From an uncultured Ignavibacteria bacterium (GTDB lineage Bacteria > Zixibacteria > MSB-5A5 > SM23-73-2), in assembly GCA_964447175.1 (NCBI GenBank), contig CAYURP010000012.1, positions 1,110 to 65,109 on the forward strand: a stretch of DNA of 64,000 nucleotides, read 5' to 3'. How positions within the stretch are numbered: the first letter of the stretch is position 1; every line of letters starts with the position of its first letter. Of this stretch, positions 15,730 to 46,950 are shown in pieces. Below the pieces are notes generated by a model. That model did not search any database, was not told the origin of the DNA, and saw only the letters and a program-made list of their open reading frames with translations. A program made the position numbers and the translations under genes.

Positions 15730-16093
15730 GTTGTAGAAATACCCAAAACGGGTCTTGACTATAATTCCACCACCAACTAAAATAAATTGGAGAATGTTGT
15801 AGGGGAGTCCCTTGTGGGCTCCCGAAAGACATATTTACGTAACCGGTAGCCCCACCTTGCCCCCAAGGTGGGGTTTGTTATGTAGTGGAAAGTGTAGCTT
15901 TCCATTCTTTTCTTATAGTATTTATCAATAGAGGTCTAAAAACCTCCTCACATTTTTTATTTTGTCTTTCGTAGCGTTCGGGTTTATCCCGGGCATTCGT
16001 TTCTTTGGAGTGCAAAAACTTGTTTTTGCAATAGCAATCCATATGGATTACGCTTCAACAGACTCCAATTCGCCCAATGAATTGGGCAACTAC
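15730..16093. repeat. Cluster of at least 7 different REP-like hairpins
   Basis: GTAG-GGGAGTCC..GGGCTCCC (15799), GTAG-CCCCACCTTG-CCCC-CAAGGTGGGG (15846), GTAG-TGGAAAG..CTTTCCA (15882), GAGGT-CTAAAA-ACCTC-CTCAC (15931), GTAG-CGTTCGGG..CCCGGGC (15971), GCCCAAT-GA-ATTGGGC-AACTAC (16071), long-loop element at 15730-15777. Confidence 0.8.
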
Positions 16094-38279: not shown

Positions 38280-38532
38280 GTAGTTGCTCGACTCATCGAA
38301 CTAACAAGCCCAATAAATTGGGCATCTATGAAAGATCAAGCGGTAGCCATGGGGTAGCCGTCCCCCTTAAGCGGGATGAGAATAATGCTTTGAGTTATGA
38401 TAATTTCGCAACCTAAAGGTTGCGGCTACCATCTTCTGCTACGTTTCATATGTTCTCTGTTAGATGTAGAGGAAAGCTTTAGCTTTCCATTATTTCTTCC
38501 CCCAATCCCTTCCACCAAGTGGAGGTCTAAAG
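38280..38532. repeat. Cluster of REP-like hairpins, last one truncated by IS481
   Basis: GTAG-TTGCTCGA.. (38280), GCCCAAT-AA-ATTGGGC-ATCTAT (38308), GTAG-CCGTCCC..GGGATG (38354), CGCAACC-TAAA-GGTTGCG-GCTAC (38407), GTAG-AGGAAAGC-TTTA-GCTTTCC (38466), half element GGAGGT-CTAAAG (38521). Confidence 0.8.
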
Positions 38533-39771
38533 TGTACTATCAACCTACATCGGTAACAGAACTATCAACTTACATGGGTGACACCTTTTGGCATGTTATC
38601 TTAGTAGTTAGAAACCAGGAGGTAGACATGCCATGGGATAATAAAACCCCATTTGAACAAGGGTGGTTCATGTTACAAAAGCTTTTTCAGGAGAAAACTC
38701 CAGTAACTAAGATAGCAAAGGGGTTTGGTGTTTCCCGTAAGACCTTCTATAAGTTCAAGCAACGTTTTGAAGCTGAGGGAGTTGCAGGTTTACAGGATCG
38801 GAGTCGTGCTCCTCACCAAAGACCCAGAAAGATTCCACAGGTAGTGGAGGAGGCGATCGTAGAACTTCGTTGTCAACATCCTGACTTTGGACCTGTTCGT
38901 CTCCAGGCGGAGCTAAAAAACTTAGGGATAGACCCCCCTTATCATCAAGGGATTCAAAATGTTTTAGTCCGTCATCATCTTAACGGCTGGAACGCTCCGG
39001 AAAAAAGGGAATACCGCCGATTTGAGTGCTCATCTCCTAATGAACTCTGGCAGTTAGATACCAAAGGCTTTTTCATCATCAAGGGTTGGGGTAAAGCTTT
39101 TCCCCTTAACATCCTGGATGGTTATTCCCGTTTTTGCATTGCCAGCCAACTTCTCCCTTTAGAAAGAAGCGAATATATCTTAGATACTTTAGAAAAAGCT
39201 ATTGCCACTTATGGAAGACCTCAATATCTTATGACCGATAACGGAGTCTGGTTTGTTCACAGAGATAAAGCCTTAACCCGAGTGCAGACGTTTCTTAAAG
39301 ATCAGGGTATTTTCCACATCCTCACCGGAGTACGTCGCCCTACTACCATAGGTAAAGTAGAACGATTTCATCGGACTTTGAATCGGGAGCTGATTAAAAA
39401 ATTTCGCTTTAAAGACTTGGTCGAAGCTCAGGAAGCTTTTGATACCTTCCGCTGGTATTATAACTATCAAAGCCACATCAGGCTCTGGATAATCTTCCTC
39501 CCATCTCTCGGTATAAGTTCGTGCAACGACAGTTTCCAAAACCTCCTGTGCCTATCTTCTATCCCCAAGGGAGCTTGTTAAGAAAGATCCGGGGCAATGG
39601 TTGTATTAGTTTCAATGGTAATGAGATTTTCATCTCCCACATACTGATTGGCAAAATTGTTAAAATTGAACAAACCCAAAAAAACTGGGAGATCTATTAT
39701 GATAAAAATCTGATTAAATCTGTAACTCATGTCAGTTGATAATCTTGTAACCTGTGTTACTTGATAATACA
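38533..39771 (+). mobile_element. IS481-family insertion sequence, 1239 bp
   Basis: TGT...ACA ends. 51-bp imperfect terminal inverted repeats (38/51 by hand), each with two internal direct repeats. Transposase inside. No target-site duplication. Confidence 0.93.
38628..39739 (+). pseudogene. IS481 transposase with a 1-bp frameshift near 39472
   Basis: AGGAGG then MPWDNK; HTH; DDE triad WQLDTKG / MTDNG / GKVERFH. After YYNYQ the frame shifts (CAA AG CCA CAT CAG GCT CTG = Q-(R)-P-H-Q-A-L), and the other frame continues to TGA 39739. Confidence 0.88.
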
Positions 39772-39794
39772 CTTTACGCCCGACGAAAATAAAC

Positions 39795-39898
39795 TTATCC
39801 CTCCGCAAAATTTTTATTTTAGGTATATAATTTCACCCACCTTGAGGGCAAGGTGGGTCTATCATATACAAAGGGGAATATTGTAATTTTGTTTTCCA
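39795..39898 (+). repeat. ~104-bp REP-containing direct repeat, copy A (upstream of fibre gene)
   Basis: About 80% identical by hand alignment to 41966-42068; core CCCACCTTGAGGGCAAGGTG hairpin. Confidence 0.85.
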
Positions 39899-40077
39899 TT
39901 CAAATCATGGTTGAGGAACTTAAGTTCAGCTTTTTCCGTTTTAATTATGTTTCAAATTCTAATACTAAAACCAGTTTAACTATTTCGATTACATTCATGT
40001 AAAATTAATCTTGATTTATGTAAAAACCTCCATTAATTATCCGAATATGTTAACTCTTAACCTTTAGGAGGTTTTCA

Positions 40078-41809: not shown

Positions 41810-42187
41810 GTAGAGGAGACCTTCAGGTCTCCAGGGGAGGTGAGAGAATCTAATTGTTTCTGACAGATCTCCGGACCTTGTCCAGCTAATTCTAGGTCAG
41901 AAGACCCAGAACTACCCAGCTAATGAATCGGAGCCATCAAGGATCTGCTACGCGTAGAGGAGGGTTTATCCCTCCGTAAAATTTCTATGTTAGATATACA
42001 ATTTAACCCCACCTTGAGGGCAAGGTGAGGTTACTGTATACAAAGGTGAATACTACAATTTTTTTCCAGAACCTAACTTAAGTTAGGTTCTGGCATTCCC
42101 TTTTTTTCTCCAAAGGGATAAATCTAATTACGCCACCAACATAAAAAATCCCATTGCAAGAAAAAGCACGGATAAATCCGTGCCTAC
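41810..42187. repeat. Cluster of about 8 REP-like hairpins including direct-repeat copy B (41966-42068)
   Basis: GTAG-AGGAGACC-TTCA-GGTCTCC (41810), TTCTAGGTC-AGAA-GACCCAGAA-CTAC (41890), GTAG-AGGAGGG..CCCTCC (41954), perfect 28-bp palindrome at 42066-42093, GCACGGA-TAAA-TCCGTGC-CTAC (42166). Confidence 0.85.
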
Positions 42188-43827: not shown

Positions 43828-46800
43828 TTATTTTCTCTTTCTGATCCTCTCCTGGACAATGGTATAAAGGGTTGGAATGAACACCAGGGTCAAAAGTGTC
43901 GAAACTAAAAGCCCGGATATGACTGCTACTGCCATAGGTGATTGAATCTCAGAACCCTCCCCTATTCCGATGGCCATGGGTAAAAGTGCAAACACAGTGG
44001 TTAGGGTGGTCATCAGAACCGGACGCAATCTGGTCCTTCCAGCAGTCACCACAGCCTCGTACAAACCCAGACCGCGTTTTAGAAGCACATTGGAATAGTC
44101 AACAATAAGGATAGCATTGGAGACCACGATCCCCGCCATCATGATTAAACCGATAAGTGACAGGACATTTACAGAAAAACCGGTGAGGAACAAACCCCAG
44201 ATAACACCCAAAATCCCTAAAGGCACGGAGAACATTATTATAAAGGGTTCTAAAAGGGACTCGAACTGAGCAGCCAGAACCATGTATACCAGAGCGACTG
44301 CCAAAAGCAAAGCCAAAAACAAAGAGGTAAACGATTCCTGTTGATCCTGATAACTTCCGGTCAGGGTTACTATAAAATTAGAGGGAATCCCTATCTCTTT
44401 TTTAATCATTGCCTGAACCTCTCGGGCCACGTTTCCAGCAGGCCTTCCCGATACCTGAGAGGTGACCGTCAATATCCTCTCCTGGTTTTTCCTCTCAATC
44501 CTTTTGGGTCCCTCTGCCTTTACCACCGTAGCCACGCTGGAAAGAGGTATCCTTCCACCTGTGGGTAAGATAAGGGAGATTCGGTCCAGATCGAAGAGGT
44601 CTTTCCGATCTTTCTCCCTTAACTGAACTAAAATATCATATTCCTTACCCAATCGGGGATCCCGGAAAAAAGAGGCGACACTTCCCTCCATGTTGGTCTG
44701 AATAGTATTGGCTATATAAGATAGATTTAATCCTAAATCGGATGCTTTTTCTCGATCTATTTTGATCTGAAGCTCTGGTGAGCCCGCTTCTCTCTCCACC
44801 CTCACATCCTTAATCCCGGGGATAGTCTGAATCAAACTGGCTATCTTTTGACCAAGATCTAAAGCAACTTTCTGGTCATATCCCCTGATCTCAACAACTA
44901 TAGGTGCTGTTGCCCCGAACCCGGACATCTGTGTCATCATTCCTGCATTAGTGTACTTGATGTCAGCATCGGGAATGTTCTTTGTTCTGGAACGCAGGGT
45001 ATCCATTATCTCAAAAACGGATCGATCTCTCTCTGAAAGATCTGATAGATAAATCCCCATCACCGCAGCATGGGGACCGGTTATATCCTGGAAAACTGAT
45101 GCCAGGGCACCAAAACCCTTACCTTCTACCCCGGCTCGAGCAGTCAGGGTTTTTAGCTCAGGGATATCTTGCAGGATCGTATTTTCTACATTGGATACCA
45201 CAGACCGGGTTTTATCCAGGTCAGTTCCCACCGGCATCTTAACCGATATATCGAACTCGCCCTCGTCGATCTCAGGCATAAACTCCGCACCTATAAACTT
45301 AACCAATGGAAGGGTAATGAGAAGAAAGGCGAAGACTATGAAGATAATAGTCTTTTTATGGGTAATGGCCCAGCTCAACACTCTTTGATAATAACTATCT
45401 ATTCCATCAAAGAACTTCTGACTTTGTCTGGATAATTTTTGGAACAGGCTTTTCCCTCCAGGATTGTTAACCTTTTTGACTTTAAGGAATCTGGAGGTCA
45501 ACAGGGGGATTAAGACCATAGCCACAAAATATGAAGCAGCCAGAGATAAGGAAATGGTATAAGCCATGGGACTGAAGAAGATTCCAGCAATTCCCTTGAC
45601 GAACAATATAGGAATGAAAACCACTATGGTGGTTACCGTAGCAGCTAAAACTGCAGAGGAGACCTCAGATGCTCCGATCTGAGCAGCCTGGGATGGTCTT
45701 TCCCCTTTTTGGCGGTGCCTGAATATATTTTCCAAAACCACAATAGAGTCATCCACCAGTCTTCCAATTCCCAGGGCTAATCCACCCAGAGTTGCGATAT
45801 TTAAGGTCATTTTCCCAAAATAAAGAAGAATGAAAGTGGCGATAACAGATATGGGTATGGCAGTTGATATGATGATGGTTGAGGAGAAGTTACGCAGGAA
45901 AAGCAATATAATGATTATAGCTAAAAGACCACCTTCCAATGCTGCCCTTTCTACGTTGCTGACCGACCTCTGGATAAAAAAGGATGCGTCATAGATGTAA
46001 TAAATTTTAACTCCCTGGGGAAGTTCCGTTTCCAGCTCAGCCAAAGTCTTTTTGACCCTTTTCGCTGCCTGAACCGTGTTGGCCTGGGATTCCTTCTGCA
46101 CCGTTAGCATCAGGGCTTCCTTACCATTAACCGTAACCATAGAAGTCTTTTCCTTGAAATCGTCCTTGATCTCGGCTATGTTTTTTAAATATATGGGAGC
46201 AGAATTATGATTGGATAAAACTACGTTTTCCAGCTGGGAAACTTCAGTGAACTGACCGGTTGTTCTTATCAGGAAATCCTTTTGACCGAATTTCAGGTGA
46301 CCTGCGGGCAAATTTAAATTAGAAGCTCCTATGGCTGAAATAACCTGCTGGGTGTTAATCCCCAAACCCTCCATTTTGGATCGGTCTAACTCCACCCTTA
46401 TTTCCCTTTCCAGCCCTCCCATCAAGGAAGCGGATGCTATCCCGTCCAGCCTTTCCAATCTCGGCTGAATCACATCCTCTGCTAAGATCCGTAATTCCGC
46501 CAGGTTCTGTTCTTCCCCGGAAACGCCCAGGAAAAAAATTGGCATCATGGATGGATCGAATTTAAATATCCAGGGGTTTTCAGCATCTTCAGGGATATAC
46601 CCTCTCACAATATCAATTTTTTCCCTTATGTCCATGGCTACCATATCCATATCAGTACCCCATTCAAACTCAAGAAATATCGTAGAAATATCCTCCAGAG
46701 AGTAGGAATATATATTCTTCAAATTCTTGACACTGGCCAGGTTCATCTCCAGTGGTTTGGTAACCATCGATTCAATCTCCTCCGGTCCTACACCATAGTA

Positions 46801-46950
46801 GTTGGTTACCACCATGGCTATGGGAAAAGTAATATCCGGATATAAATCTATGGAAAGCTGCCCAAAGGAAATCATCCCCAATACTATCACCGCAATGCAA
46901 ATCATAAAGACGGTGATGGACCTTTTGGTAGCGAATTCTGGCAAAAACAT
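43828..46950 (-). CDS. RND efflux permease (AcrB/AcrD/AcrF family)
   Basis: GRLVDDSIVVLENI, GRTRLRPVLMTTLTT, 12-TM pattern. Confidence 0.96.
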   Translation of the reverse strand: MFLPEFATKRSITVFMICIAVIVLGMISFGQLSIDLYPDITFPIAMVVTNYYGVGPEEIESMVTKPLEMNLASVKNLKNIYSYSLEDISTIFLEFEWGTDMDMVAMDIREKIDIVRGYIPEDAENPWIFKFDPSMMPIFFLGVSGEEQNLAELRILAEDVIQPRLERLDGIASASLMGGLEREIRVELDRSKMEGLGINTQQVISAIGASNLNLPAGHLKFGQKDFLIRTTGQFTEVSQLENVVLSNHNSAPIYLKNIAEIKDDFKEKTSMVTVNGKEALMLTVQKESQANTVQAAKRVKKTLAELETELPQGVKIYYIYDASFFIQRSVSNVERAALEGGLLAIIIILLFLRNFSSTIIISTAIPISVIATFILLYFGKMTLNIATLGGLALGIGRLVDDSIVVLENIFRHRQKGERPSQAAQIGASEVSSAVLAATVTTIVVFIPILFVKGIAGIFFSPMAYTISLSLAASYFVAMVLIPLLTSRFLKVKKVNNPGGKSLFQKLSRQSQKFFDGIDSYYQRVLSWAITHKKTIIFIVFAFLLITLPLVKFIGAEFMPEIDEGEFDISVKMPVGTDLDKTRSVVSNVENTILQDIPELKTLTARAGVEGKGFGALASVFQDITGPHAAVMGIYLSDLSERDRSVFEIMDTLRSRTKNIPDADIKYTNAGMMTQMSGFGATAPIVVEIRGYDQKVALDLGQKIASLIQTIPGIKDVRVEREAGSPELQIKIDREKASDLGLNLSYIANTIQTNMEGSVASFFRDPRLGKEYDILVQLREKDRKDLFDLDRISLILPTGGRIPLSSVATVVKAEGPKRIERKNQERILTVTSQVSGRPAGNVAREVQAMIKKEIGIPSNFIVTLTGSYQDQQESFTSLFLALLLAVALVYMVLAAQFESLLEPFIIMFSVPLGILGVIWGLFLTGFSVNVLSLIGLIMMAGIVVSNAILIVDYSNVLLKRGLGLYEAVVTAGRTRLRPVLMTTLTTVFALLPMAIGIGEGSEIQSPMAVAVISGLLVSTLLTLVFIPTLYTIVQERIRKRK

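What the first reader, a model, noticed from the sequence alone, without database searches (positions are those of the whole stretch)
38521..39784. IS481 sits exactly at REP hairpin loops on both sides, with halves from two different REPs
The left flank GGAGGT-CTAAAG is one arm plus loop of the GAGGT-CTAAA-ACCTC family seen intact at 15931. The right flank CTTTAC-GCCCGAC reads as loop plus arm of a different (GTCGGG..CCCGAC) hairpin. The flanking hexamers are not a direct duplication but near reverse complements (CTAAAG / CTTTAC), and intact REPs nearby share such loops (CCTAAAGG, GCTTTAGC). The best reading is an IS481 that targets REP loops (CTTTAS), followed by IS-mediated deletion or recombination between two copies. 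I know REP targeting mainly from IS3 and IS110 elements.
Basis: partly seen in the sequence, partly recalled or inferred. Interest (0 to 1): 0.65.

Follow-up and report, generated by a model that had tools for sequence, protein, structure and literature searches.

The report
REP-loop-targeting IS481 with mismatched flanks
A dead copy of an IS481-type jumping gene in a Zixibacteria genome sits between halves of two different small hairpin repeats (REPs); its relatives show that this lineage lands in REP hairpin loops, a habit already described for other insertion sequences, and that about 40 bp or more was probably lost beside this copy.

Summary
One coordinate needs correcting: the IS spans 38533-39771 (1239 bp).

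- **Family.** It is an IS481-family element (NF033577, 243.7 bits against a cut-off of 224). It is single-copy in this 89-contig MAG and is inactivated by a 1-base deletion.
- **Left flank.** It is the first ~70 nt of an ~85-nt REPIN. The genome holds at least 22 intact copies, four of them around a RAYT gene. The REPIN is cut exactly after the loop hexamer CTAAAG.
- **Right flank.** CTTTAC-GCCCGAC-G is the loop plus 3' arm of a different REP, GTAGC-GTCGGG-CTTTAC-GCCCGAC-G, which is intact on contig C46. Both GTAG heads are missing.
- **Targeting.** I collected 39 unique junctions of 72-89% related copies from Zixibacteria genomes and metagenomes. The hexamer next to either IS end is CTWWAG, almost always in a REP loop. 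Three intact sites show a perfect 6-bp duplication of the loop.
- **Mismatched flanks.** They most likely reflect an IS-associated deletion between two neighbouring REP loops. Two other REPIN copies, including the paralogue of this locus, are followed 16-19 nt later by a similar REP, so the loss may be only about 40 bp.
- **Prior art.** REP targeting by an IS481-family element, including a copy without a target duplication, was published for Pseudomonas fluorescens SBW25 in 2024. This is a new member of a known kind.

The parts
38464..38532 (+). Truncated REPIN, the first ~70 of ~85 nt. It holds the outer foot ATGTAG, the first REP hairpin GGAAAGC-TTTA-GCTTTCC (38471-38488), a C/T-rich spacer, and then only the 3'-arm-and-loop half GGAGGT-CTAAAG (38521-38532) of the second, inverted REP. 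The expected ACCTCC-[G/T]CTACAT is missing.
   Evidence: 22-24 full copies elsewhere in the genome all continue with ACCTCC-GCTAC. The sequence was read.
38527..38532 (.). Left flanking hexamer CTAAAG. It is the loop of the REPIN's second REP and matches the target consensus CTWWAG.
38533..39771 (+). IS481-family insertion sequence, 1239 bp. The imperfect terminal inverted repeats start TGTAYTATCAA (42 of 60 terminal positions identical). Each end holds two copies of a ~TATCAAC-N-ACATGGGT-ACA motif.
   Evidence: It is the only copy in the genome.
38628..39469 (+). Transposase, N-terminal 281 codons: HTH, IS481 leucine zipper and the rve DDE core, in frame 0 up to the frameshift.
   Evidence: HTH_32, rve, LZ_Tnp_IS481; NF033577, 243.7 bits against cut-off 224.
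39468..39470 (+). Site of a single-base deletion. The window reads CAAAG-CCACAT where seven relatives read CAAAGACCACAT or similar. The deletion throws the C-terminal ~90 codons out of frame.
   Evidence: Relatives have intact 370-395-aa ORFs.
39470..39739 (+). Out-of-frame C-terminal part of the transposase (KPHQALDNLPPISRYKF...VTHVS, then the stop codon).
39772..39785 (+). Right flank: loop hexamer CTTTAC plus the 3' arm GCCCGAC-G of a second, different REP. The head and 5' arm GTAGC-GTCGGG are missing.
   Evidence: the intact REP GTAGCGTCGGGCTTTACGCCCGACG is on C46, with variants on C5.
39798..39807 (+). A third half-REP, TTA-TCCCTCC. It is the loop and 3' arm of GTAGAGGAGGG-TTTA-TCCCTCC, which is intact at 41950-41972. 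Homology with the 104-bp repeat at 41966-42068 begins inside this loop.

Best explanation
This is a decayed, single-copy member of a Zixibacteria lineage of IS481-family insertion sequences. Their DDE transposase integrates into the 6-nt loop (consensus CTWWAG) of GTAG-tagged REP hairpins.

**Inferred mechanism of targeting.** The staggered cuts fall at the two stem-loop junctions. Repair then duplicates the loop as a 6-bp target-site duplication. Because the target is palindromic, either IS end can face the REP head.

**What happened here.** The two junctions belong to two different REPs. On the left is the loop plus 3' arm of the second REP of a REPIN. On the right is the loop plus 3' arm of a GTAGC-GTCGGG-CTTTAC-GCCCGAC REP. 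Both junctions are in exact register with transposase-made junctions elsewhere, so both were made by strand transfer and not by a random deletion.

The most likely history is:
1. Insertion into one of two neighbouring, head-to-head REP loops.
2. A transposase-mediated adjacent deletion whose far end landed in the neighbouring loop. An equivalent route is recombination between two direct IS copies, one in each loop.
3. Loss of the two GTAG heads and the spacer, possibly only about 40 bp.
4. A later 1-base deletion that inactivated the transposase.

**Shown:** family membership, junction register, loop targeting in relatives, and the identity of the two half-REPs.

**Inferred:** the order of events, the size of the deletion, and the mechanism of target recognition.
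For: **Family.** NF033577 at 243.7 bits against a cut-off of 224. Pfam HTH_32, rve and LZ_Tnp_IS481. The ends are TGT...ACA.

**Targeting.**
- 39 unique IS-end junctions came from 10 relatives' genomes and 8 metagenome contigs.
- The hexamer read towards the IS is C(32)/T(37)/W/W/A(42)/G(35), counted over 42 rows, three of which are internal IS repeats. CTTTAG occurs 17 times and CTAAAG 10 times.
- 20 of 39 junctions have a G[TG]AG head exactly 7 nt upstream of the hexamer.
- Heads occur at the left end 11 times and at the right end 9 times, so there is no orientation bias.
- In the window's genome only about 4% of the 5438 such hexamers lie between stems.

**Intact sites with perfect 6-bp duplications of the loop.**
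- G006: ATAAAC, in GTAGCGTCGGG-GTTTAT-CCCTGA.
- G002:C9: CTTTAG, in CTCAAGG...CCTTGAG.
- G002:C43: ATAAAG.

**The repeats are real REPs.** Five Y1_Tnp matches in the genome. The one at C7:46244-46564 is flanked by four copies of the interrupted REPIN family.

**Local deletion is plausible.** 6 of 22 intact REPIN copies are followed within 14-50 nt by a GTAG-N7-loop REP. The C23 paralogue (232 bp, 77% identical to the left flank) and the C24 copy carry GTAG..CCGGG-TTTAT-CCGG REPs 16-19 nt downstream.

**No second copy.** There is no second IS copy, no IS k-mer at any contig end, no orphan partner half and no reciprocal head/head junction in the 89 contigs.

**Deletions and rearrangements at this IS are common in relatives.** There are many solo-end remnants. 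The hybrid-flanked copy in G012 joins prfA to a gene that lies elsewhere in four relatives. The usual prfA neighbour sits on another G012 contig with a different upstream region.
Against: - No reads could be examined, so an assembly mis-join through the IS is not excluded.
- 8 of 11 complete elements in public assemblies have mismatched flanks, whereas both short MITE-like derivatives are intact. That pattern would also be produced by chimeric short-read assembly of a 1.2-kb repeat.
- The ancestral state of this locus could not be recovered. The same-genus contig G001:C79 ends 1 nt past the insertion point. The downstream neighbours differ in G002 and G003.
- A second breakpoint 26 nt to the right, a third half-REP, shows that the region has a more complex history than one event.
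Confidence: 0.62

Rival explanations
1. Assembly chimera. The organism, or its population, carries two or more copies of the IS, each properly inserted in a REP loop with its own 6-bp duplication. The assembler then joined the left flank of one copy to the right flank of another through the 1.2-kb repeat.
For: - The genome is an 89-contig MAG.
- In relatives the IS is multi-copy and breaks contigs (G017, G001 and G002).
- Most full-length copies on short metagenome contigs have mismatched flanks, while the ~350-bp derivatives do not.
- L052 and G006 share a 99.7% identical IS and right flank but differ in the left flank.
Against: - BLAST at word size 7 finds no other fragment of the IS in the genome.
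- No contig end carries IS k-mers, and no orphan ...IS-CTAAAG-ACCTCC or GTAGCGTCGGG-CTTTAC-IS half exists.
- The IS lies in the middle of a 67-kb contig.
- The copy is a frameshifted pseudogene, which fits an old single copy.
- In G012 the analogous hybrid is backed by an independent contig that shows the rearranged neighbourhood.
Confidence: 0.2
2. Primary event without a target duplication. The IS was joined in one step to two different REP loops. One route is two strand transfers into two neighbouring loops with deletion polarity. The other is insertion into a DNA break formed during REP-REP recombination, as Ngan et al. 2024 proposed for the SBW25 IS481 element. In this reading no target duplication ever existed.
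For: - Both junctions are in exact transposase register at loop edges.
- A direct laboratory precedent exists for an IS481-family element entering a REP cluster without a duplication, at a rearrangement junction (PMC11708052).
- Mismatched flanks are the majority state among complete copies.
- L054 and L055 lie at unrelated loci but carry the same pair of REP halves.
Against: - It cannot be told apart from insertion followed by adjacent deletion using the end product alone.
- Three relatives show ordinary 6-bp duplications, so the normal pathway operates.
- Many of the mismatched copies may be assembly artefacts.
Confidence: 0.13
3. The hexamers belong to the IS. TAAAG/CTTTA would be the outermost part of the terminal inverted repeat, and the resemblance to REP loops would be coincidental.
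For: In this copy the inverted repeat can be extended by 5 nt (TAAAG-TGTA ... TACA-CTTTA).
Against: - In relatives the same IS end is abutted by CTTTAG in some copies and by CTAAAG, CTGAAG, ATAAAC and others elsewhere.
- Intact sites show direct, not inverted, hexamer repeats.
- The left hexamer continues the 22+ copy REPIN consensus, and the right hexamer continues the intact REP on C46.
Confidence: 0.02

Closest known systems
IS481-family element of Pseudomonas fluorescens SBW25 (Ngan, Parab, Bertels & Gallie 2024, mBio, PMC11708052)
   Same: - It belongs to the same IS family.
- All of its copies sit at a fixed position of REP/REPIN sequences.
[quoted passage not shown]
- A newly arisen copy lacked a target duplication and bridged a rearrangement junction in a REP cluster.
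   Different: - The host is a different phylum, Pseudomonadota rather than Zixibacteria.
- The SBW25 element has the REP at one particular (5') end and a reported 4-bp repeat that travels with the IS.
- Here either end can face the REP head, the duplication is the 6-nt loop CTWWAG, and the event is a loss of DNA rather than a duplication.
- I did not compare the sequences directly.
IS1397 and ISKpn1 (IS3 family), which insert into the loops of palindromic units (REP/BIME) of enterobacteria. This rests on my own knowledge of Clément 1999 and Wilde 2003, plus the summary in Tobes & Pareja 2006, PMC1525189.
   Same: - Both are DDE (rve-type) transposases.
- Integration is in the loop of REP hairpins, with a short duplication.
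- Many copies sit in REP clusters.
   Different: - They belong to a different IS family, with two ORFs and a programmed frameshift.
- Their duplication is 3-4 bp.
- Their specificity has been shown experimentally to reside in the transposase, which is untested here.
IS481 of Bordetella pertussis (type element). This comparison rests on my own knowledge.
   Same: - Single-ORF DDE transposase.
- TGT...ACA ends.
- A 6-bp duplication of a palindromic target (NCTAGN there, CTWWAG here).
- Copies with unmatched flanks arise through IS-IS recombination, giving deletions and inversions.
   Different: The Bordetella target is a bare hexamer and not a REP hairpin loop, and the copy number is in the hundreds.
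REP/REPIN-RAYT systems (Nunvar 2010, PMC2817692; Bertels & Rainey 2011, PMC3116915)
   Same: - The interrupted repeats have a GTAG head, an imperfect palindrome and inverted doublets.
- They occur at 20 to over 200 copies.
- A Y1-transposase gene is flanked by the same REPIN family.
   Different: - The two REPs of the ~85-nt REPIN have different stems (GGAAAGC and GGAGGTC).
- Many stem variants share one loop, CTTTAG or CTTCAG.

Membership tests
IS481 family | Transposase matches the curated IS481 family model above its cut-off | tested here: met
   NF033577 at 243.7 bits against a cut-off of 224, using the N-terminal 281 aa. The IS3 model scores 98 bits against a cut-off of 160.
IS481 family | N-terminal HTH and leucine zipper plus an rve-type DDE catalytic core, in a single ORF | tested here: met
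   HTH_32, LZ_Tnp_IS481, rve and rve_3. Relatives have single ORFs of 370-395 aa. This copy is split by a 1-base deletion.
IS481 family | Terminal inverted repeats beginning 5'-TGT | tested here: met
   TGTACTATCAA... and ...TTGATAATACA; 42 of 60 terminal positions identical.
IS481 family | Short direct target-site duplication, typically 6 bp | tested here: not met
   This copy has CTAAAG against CTTTAC, so there is no direct repeat. The feature is met in relatives: ATAAAC, CTTTAG and ATAAAG duplications. The absence here is attributed to a later deletion or recombination.
REP / REPIN with RAYT | GTAG-type head next to an imperfect palindrome, in high copy number and mostly intergenic | tested here: met
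   22-24 full copies of the ~85-nt element. About 205 perfect hairpins with a 6-bp stem and a CTNNAG loop, against at most 3 for any single loop hexamer in shuffled sequence. 253 G[TG]AG-N7-CTWWAG sites.
REP / REPIN with RAYT | Two REPs in inverted orientation forming a doublet (REPIN) | tested here: met
   Outer feet ATGTAGCGG...CCGCTACAT, with two internal hairpins.
REP / REPIN with RAYT | A Y1 (HUH) transposase gene flanked by its own REPs | tested here: met
   PF01797 match of 57.6 bits at C7:46244-46564 in an open 164-aa frame. REPIN copies lie at C7:45974-46141 and 46652-46859.
REP-loop-targeting insertion sequences (IS1397-like behaviour) | Independent copies recurrently inserted at the same position of REP hairpins | tested here: met
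   39 unique junctions; hexamer CTWWAG; 20 with a GTAG or GGAG head at a fixed distance.
REP-loop-targeting insertion sequences (IS1397-like behaviour) | Target specificity resides in the transposase and is shown by transposition assays | not testable with these tools
   Needs an in vivo or in vitro assay with an intact relative.

The most novel reading that the evidence does not exclude
For this IS481 lineage, joining two different REP loops in one transposition event may be a regular primary outcome rather than a secondary accident. The routes would be two-loop strand transfer, or capture of REP-REP recombination breaks. Each such event would create a deletion or inversion without a target duplication. 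REP clusters together with this IS would then act as a built-in rearrangement engine. The many mismatched copies seen in Zixibacteria would be natural evidence for the break-insertion idea of Ngan et al. 2024.
Probability: 0.13. Interest if true: 0.6.

Novelty: new member of a known kind. Interest (0 to 1): 0.38.

Why it matters
- It extends REP-hairpin targeting by IS481-family transposases from one laboratory Pseudomonas strain to an uncultured phylum.
- It gives a clean target rule: a 6-nt loop CTWWAG that becomes the target-site duplication, in either orientation.
- It supplies intact relatives and MITE-like derivatives that could be tested experimentally.
- It shows that REP clusters with this IS mark breakpoints of deletions and rearrangements. 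That matters for reading synteny breaks, and possible mis-assemblies, in MAGs.
- It does not reveal a new kind of system.

Tried and rejected
**Ideas rejected**
- TAAAG as part of the terminal inverted repeat. Rejected from the relatives' junctions.
- A structured RNA at the repeat. Rfam found no match in the window at gathering threshold.
- The G012 flanks as halves of one fully palindromic REP. The pattern search found none; REP tails there lack CTAC.
- A mixed REPIN (GGAGTG-type plus GGAAGG-type) that would explain the identical hybrid flanks of L054 and L055. It was not seen in 30 G017 loci.
- An inversion in the window. No reciprocal head/head junction exists in the genome.

**Searches that found nothing useful**
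- A second copy or end fragments in the genome: none.
- Ancestral empty site for the window. G001:C79 stops 1 nt past the insertion point, no orthologue of the right flank exists in G001, and the downstream genes differ in G002 and G003.
- Independent assemblies of the junction. The Logan and JGI contigs stop before the REPIN. Exact look-ups of the fibre protein and of the two transposase ORF pieces found nothing.
- Wider distribution. The left end is found in only 5 of 285 genomes of the phylum, all in one order.

**Not possible**

Full report
**1. What is at the coordinates**

- Reading 38300-40000 shows an element with ends TGTACTATCAACC... (from 38533) and ...CTTGATAATACA (to 39771). It is 1239 bp long.
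- Its ORF from 38628 carries HTH_32, the IS481 leucine zipper and rve domains. It passes the NCBIfam IS481 model at 243.7 bits against a cut-off of 224.
- The frame breaks near 39469. Alignment with eight related copies shows a single missing base: CAAAG-CCACAT against CAAAGACCACAT. Seven of those relatives keep intact 370-395-aa ORFs; the eighth, the G012 copy, is also broken.
- The two ends share 42 of their first 60 positions, and each holds two copies of a TATCAAC-N-ACATGGGT-ACA motif.
- The genome is a 2.73-Mb, 89-contig MAG with 42% G+C. Its relatives' records are labelled Candidatus Zixiibacteriota.
- It contains exactly one copy of the IS and no further fragment.

**2. The flanks**

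- *Left flank.* BLAST of the left flank against the genome shows that 38464-38532 is the first ~70 nt of an ~85-nt repeat. Its consensus is ATGTAGCGG-AAAGC-TTTA-GCTTT-CC, a C/T-rich spacer, then ATGGAGGTC-TAAA-GACCTCC-GCTACAT.
- That repeat is two GTAG-headed hairpins in inverted orientation, which is a REPIN. All 22-24 full copies continue ...CT[A/G]AAG-ACCTCC-[G/T]CTAC. In the window the IS starts right after CTAAAG, and the ACCTCC-CTAC half is absent.
- *Right flank.* CTTTACGCCCGACG is the loop and 3' arm of the REP GTAGC-GTCGGG-CTTTAC-GCCCGAC-G. That REP is intact on C46, and near-identical copies lie on C5.
- Read outward from the IS, both flanks are therefore 'loop plus 3' arm' halves of two different REPs. 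Both GTAG heads are gone.
- *These are true REPs.* The genome has Y1_Tnp (RAYT-type) genes. The one at C7:46244-46564 is bracketed by four copies of this same REPIN family.
- Perfect hairpins with a 6-bp stem and CTGAAG, CTTCAG, CTTTAG, CTAAAG or CTTAAG loops number about 205. No single loop hexamer occurs more than 3 times in shuffled sequence.

**3. Does the IS lineage target REP loops?**

- Related copies (72-89% identical in DNA) occur in 10 of 61 related genomes, all in one order, and on 8 metagenome contigs.
- After removing duplicates I obtained 39 unique IS-end junctions.
- Read towards the IS, the adjoining hexamer is C-T-W-W-A-G. CTTTAG occurs 17 times and CTAAAG 10 times. The rest are CTGAAG, CTTCAG, CTTAAG, ATAAAG, ATAAAC and similar. 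A at position -2 is invariant.
- 20 junctions have a G[TG]AG head exactly 7 nt upstream. Most of the others are recognisable REP tails.
- Heads face the left end 11 times and the right end 9 times, so the target is used symmetrically.
- The hexamer alone cannot explain this. Only about 4% of the 5438 such hexamers in the window's genome lie between stems.
- Three complete elements have perfect 6-bp direct repeats. In G006 (ATAAAC) and in the 355-bp MITE-like derivative on G002:C9 (CTTTAG) the repeat equals the loop of an intact hairpin. The 318-bp derivative on G002:C43 (ATAAAG) lies in only a weak hairpin.

**4. Why are the flanks mismatched?**

- The outward-facing halves are what a deletion between an IS in a minus-oriented REP and a plus-oriented REP loop would leave.
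- Homologous recombination between two direct IS copies would leave the same product. So would a transposase-mediated adjacent deletion, or a one-step two-loop event.
- An inversion is unlikely, because no reciprocal head/head junction exists in the genome.
- The deletion may be very small. 6 of 22 intact REPIN copies are followed within 14-50 nt by a plus-oriented GTAG-N7-loop REP.
- The C23 paralogue shares 232 bp (77%) with the window's left flank. Both it and the C24 copy carry GTAG..CCGGG-TTTAT-CCGG REPs 16-19 nt after the REPIN.
- By analogy, only ACCTCC-CTAC, the spacer and GTAGCGTCGGG need have been lost, about 40 bp.
- I could not recover the real ancestral state. In the same-genus genome the orthologous contig G001:C79 ends one base after ...GGAGGTCTAAAG. 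That base is an A, as in an intact REPIN.
- The genes downstream of the tatA-X operon differ in G002 and G003.

**5. Mismatched flanks elsewhere**

- Of 11 complete elements, 8 have flanks from two different REPs. The window has two tails. G012:C34, L053, L054 and L055 have two heads. L049, L050 and L052 are mixed.
- *The G012 case is informative.* Its IS is also degenerate. It joins the 3' end of prfA, followed by a REP head and loop, to a REP loop and head in front of another gene.
- In G023 and G014 the right-hand REP is intact: GCGCAAT-CTAAAG-ATTGCGGCTAC.
- In G032 the left-hand REP after prfA is intact. In G028 and G032 prfA is followed by a different conserved gene.
- In G032 the two flanks lie 22 kb apart and inverted.
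- In G012 that conserved gene sits on another contig behind an unrelated transposase remnant. The G012 hybrid therefore marks a real rearrangement.
- *A caution.* Many of the other hybrids lie on 1.2-3-kb short-read contigs of multi-copy elements and may be chimeric. L052 and G006 share a 99.7% identical IS and right flank but differ in the left flank.
- Numerous solo-end remnants show that deletions at these elements are frequent.

**6. The assembly question for the window**

- *Against a chimera:* the IS is single-copy, no contig end contains IS k-mers, no orphan partner halves exist, the copy is a pseudogene, and it lies inside a 67-kb contig.
- *Not excluded:* partner flanks could sit on short unbinned contigs.
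- Independent assemblies of the same organism (Logan SRR9700688 and a JGI contig) stop in the REP-rich region before reaching the IS.

**7. Comparison with what is known**

- Tobes & Pareja 2006 listed REP targeting for IS3, IS110, IS4, IS256 and IS5 elements but not for IS481.
- Ngan et al. 2024 showed that all copies of the IS481-family element of P. fluorescens SBW25 sit at one position of REP/REPIN sequences. They also showed that a new copy arose without a duplication, in a REP cluster at the centre of a large duplication. They proposed insertion into DNA breaks, or transposase-mediated rearrangement.
- The present case is a phylogenetically distant counterpart. Its specifics are a 6-nt CTWWAG loop that becomes the duplication, no orientation preference, and loss of DNA rather than a duplication.
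- Notes from other agents of this scan report IS481-type elements in hairpin loops in other phyla. I treat these as unverified leads only.

**8. Verdict**

- REP-loop targeting is supported.
- An IS-associated deletion is the best explanation, but its mechanism is unproven, and a mis-join remains a 20% rival.
- This is a new member of a known kind and of moderate interest.

Noticed in passing
window 39772-39808 and 41925-42075: A third half-REP lies 26 nt right of the IS. Homology between the two ~104-bp repeats (39795-39898 and 41966-42068) starts inside the loop of GTAGAGGAGGG-TTTA-TCCCTCC. That REP is intact at 41950 but lacks its head and 5' arm at 39798. A second breakpoint in a REP loop therefore sits right beside the IS.
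   Followed up: partly
own genome C7:45974-46859 (outside the window): A RAYT-like Y1 transposase gene (PF01797, 57.6 bits, open 164-aa frame at 46244-46564) is bracketed by four copies of the same ~85-nt REPIN family that the IS interrupts.
   Followed up: partly
L021 (G002:C9, 355 bp) and L024 (G002:C43, 318 bp): These are MITE-like internal-deletion derivatives of the IS that keep both ends. Each has a perfect 6-bp target duplication (CTTTAG and ATAAAG). The first lies in an intact hairpin, CTCAAGG...CCTTGAG.
   Followed up: partly
L054 (922-2162) and L055 (1405-2645): Two 94% identical IS copies lie at unrelated loci. They share the same pair of foreign REP halves: 17 nt GGAGTGYAAAS-CTTTAG on the left and 27 nt CTAAAG-CCTTCC-GCTACAAAA on the right. 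No intact composite element with this pair was found in 30 G017 loci, so this remains unexplained.
   Followed up: partly
L003 (G012:C34), L118-L125: The G012 copy joins prfA to a gene that has a different upstream region in G023 and G014. In G032 the two flanks are 22 kb apart and inverted. The usual prfA neighbour lies on G012:C38 behind an unrelated, decayed transposase.
   Followed up: yes
L035 (G001:C79, first 100 nt): The same-genus orthologue of the left flank ends its contig one base past ...GGAGGTCTAAAG. That base is an A, as in an intact REPIN. This suggests an assembly-graph branch exactly at the insertion position.
   Followed up: partly
L008, L009, L010, L011, L015, L016, L018, L026: These loci hold solo IS-end remnants of 45-325 nt in six related genomes. 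Most still abut a CTWWAG hexamer. Several are truncated internally next to another REP.
   Followed up: partly
own genome, whole: Many REP families with different 5-7-bp stems share one loop type, CTTTAG or CTTCAG, and a GTAG or GGAGTG head. G017 has about 117 copies of GGAGTGNAAAN-CTTYAG, mostly as head-out doublets.
   Followed up: partly
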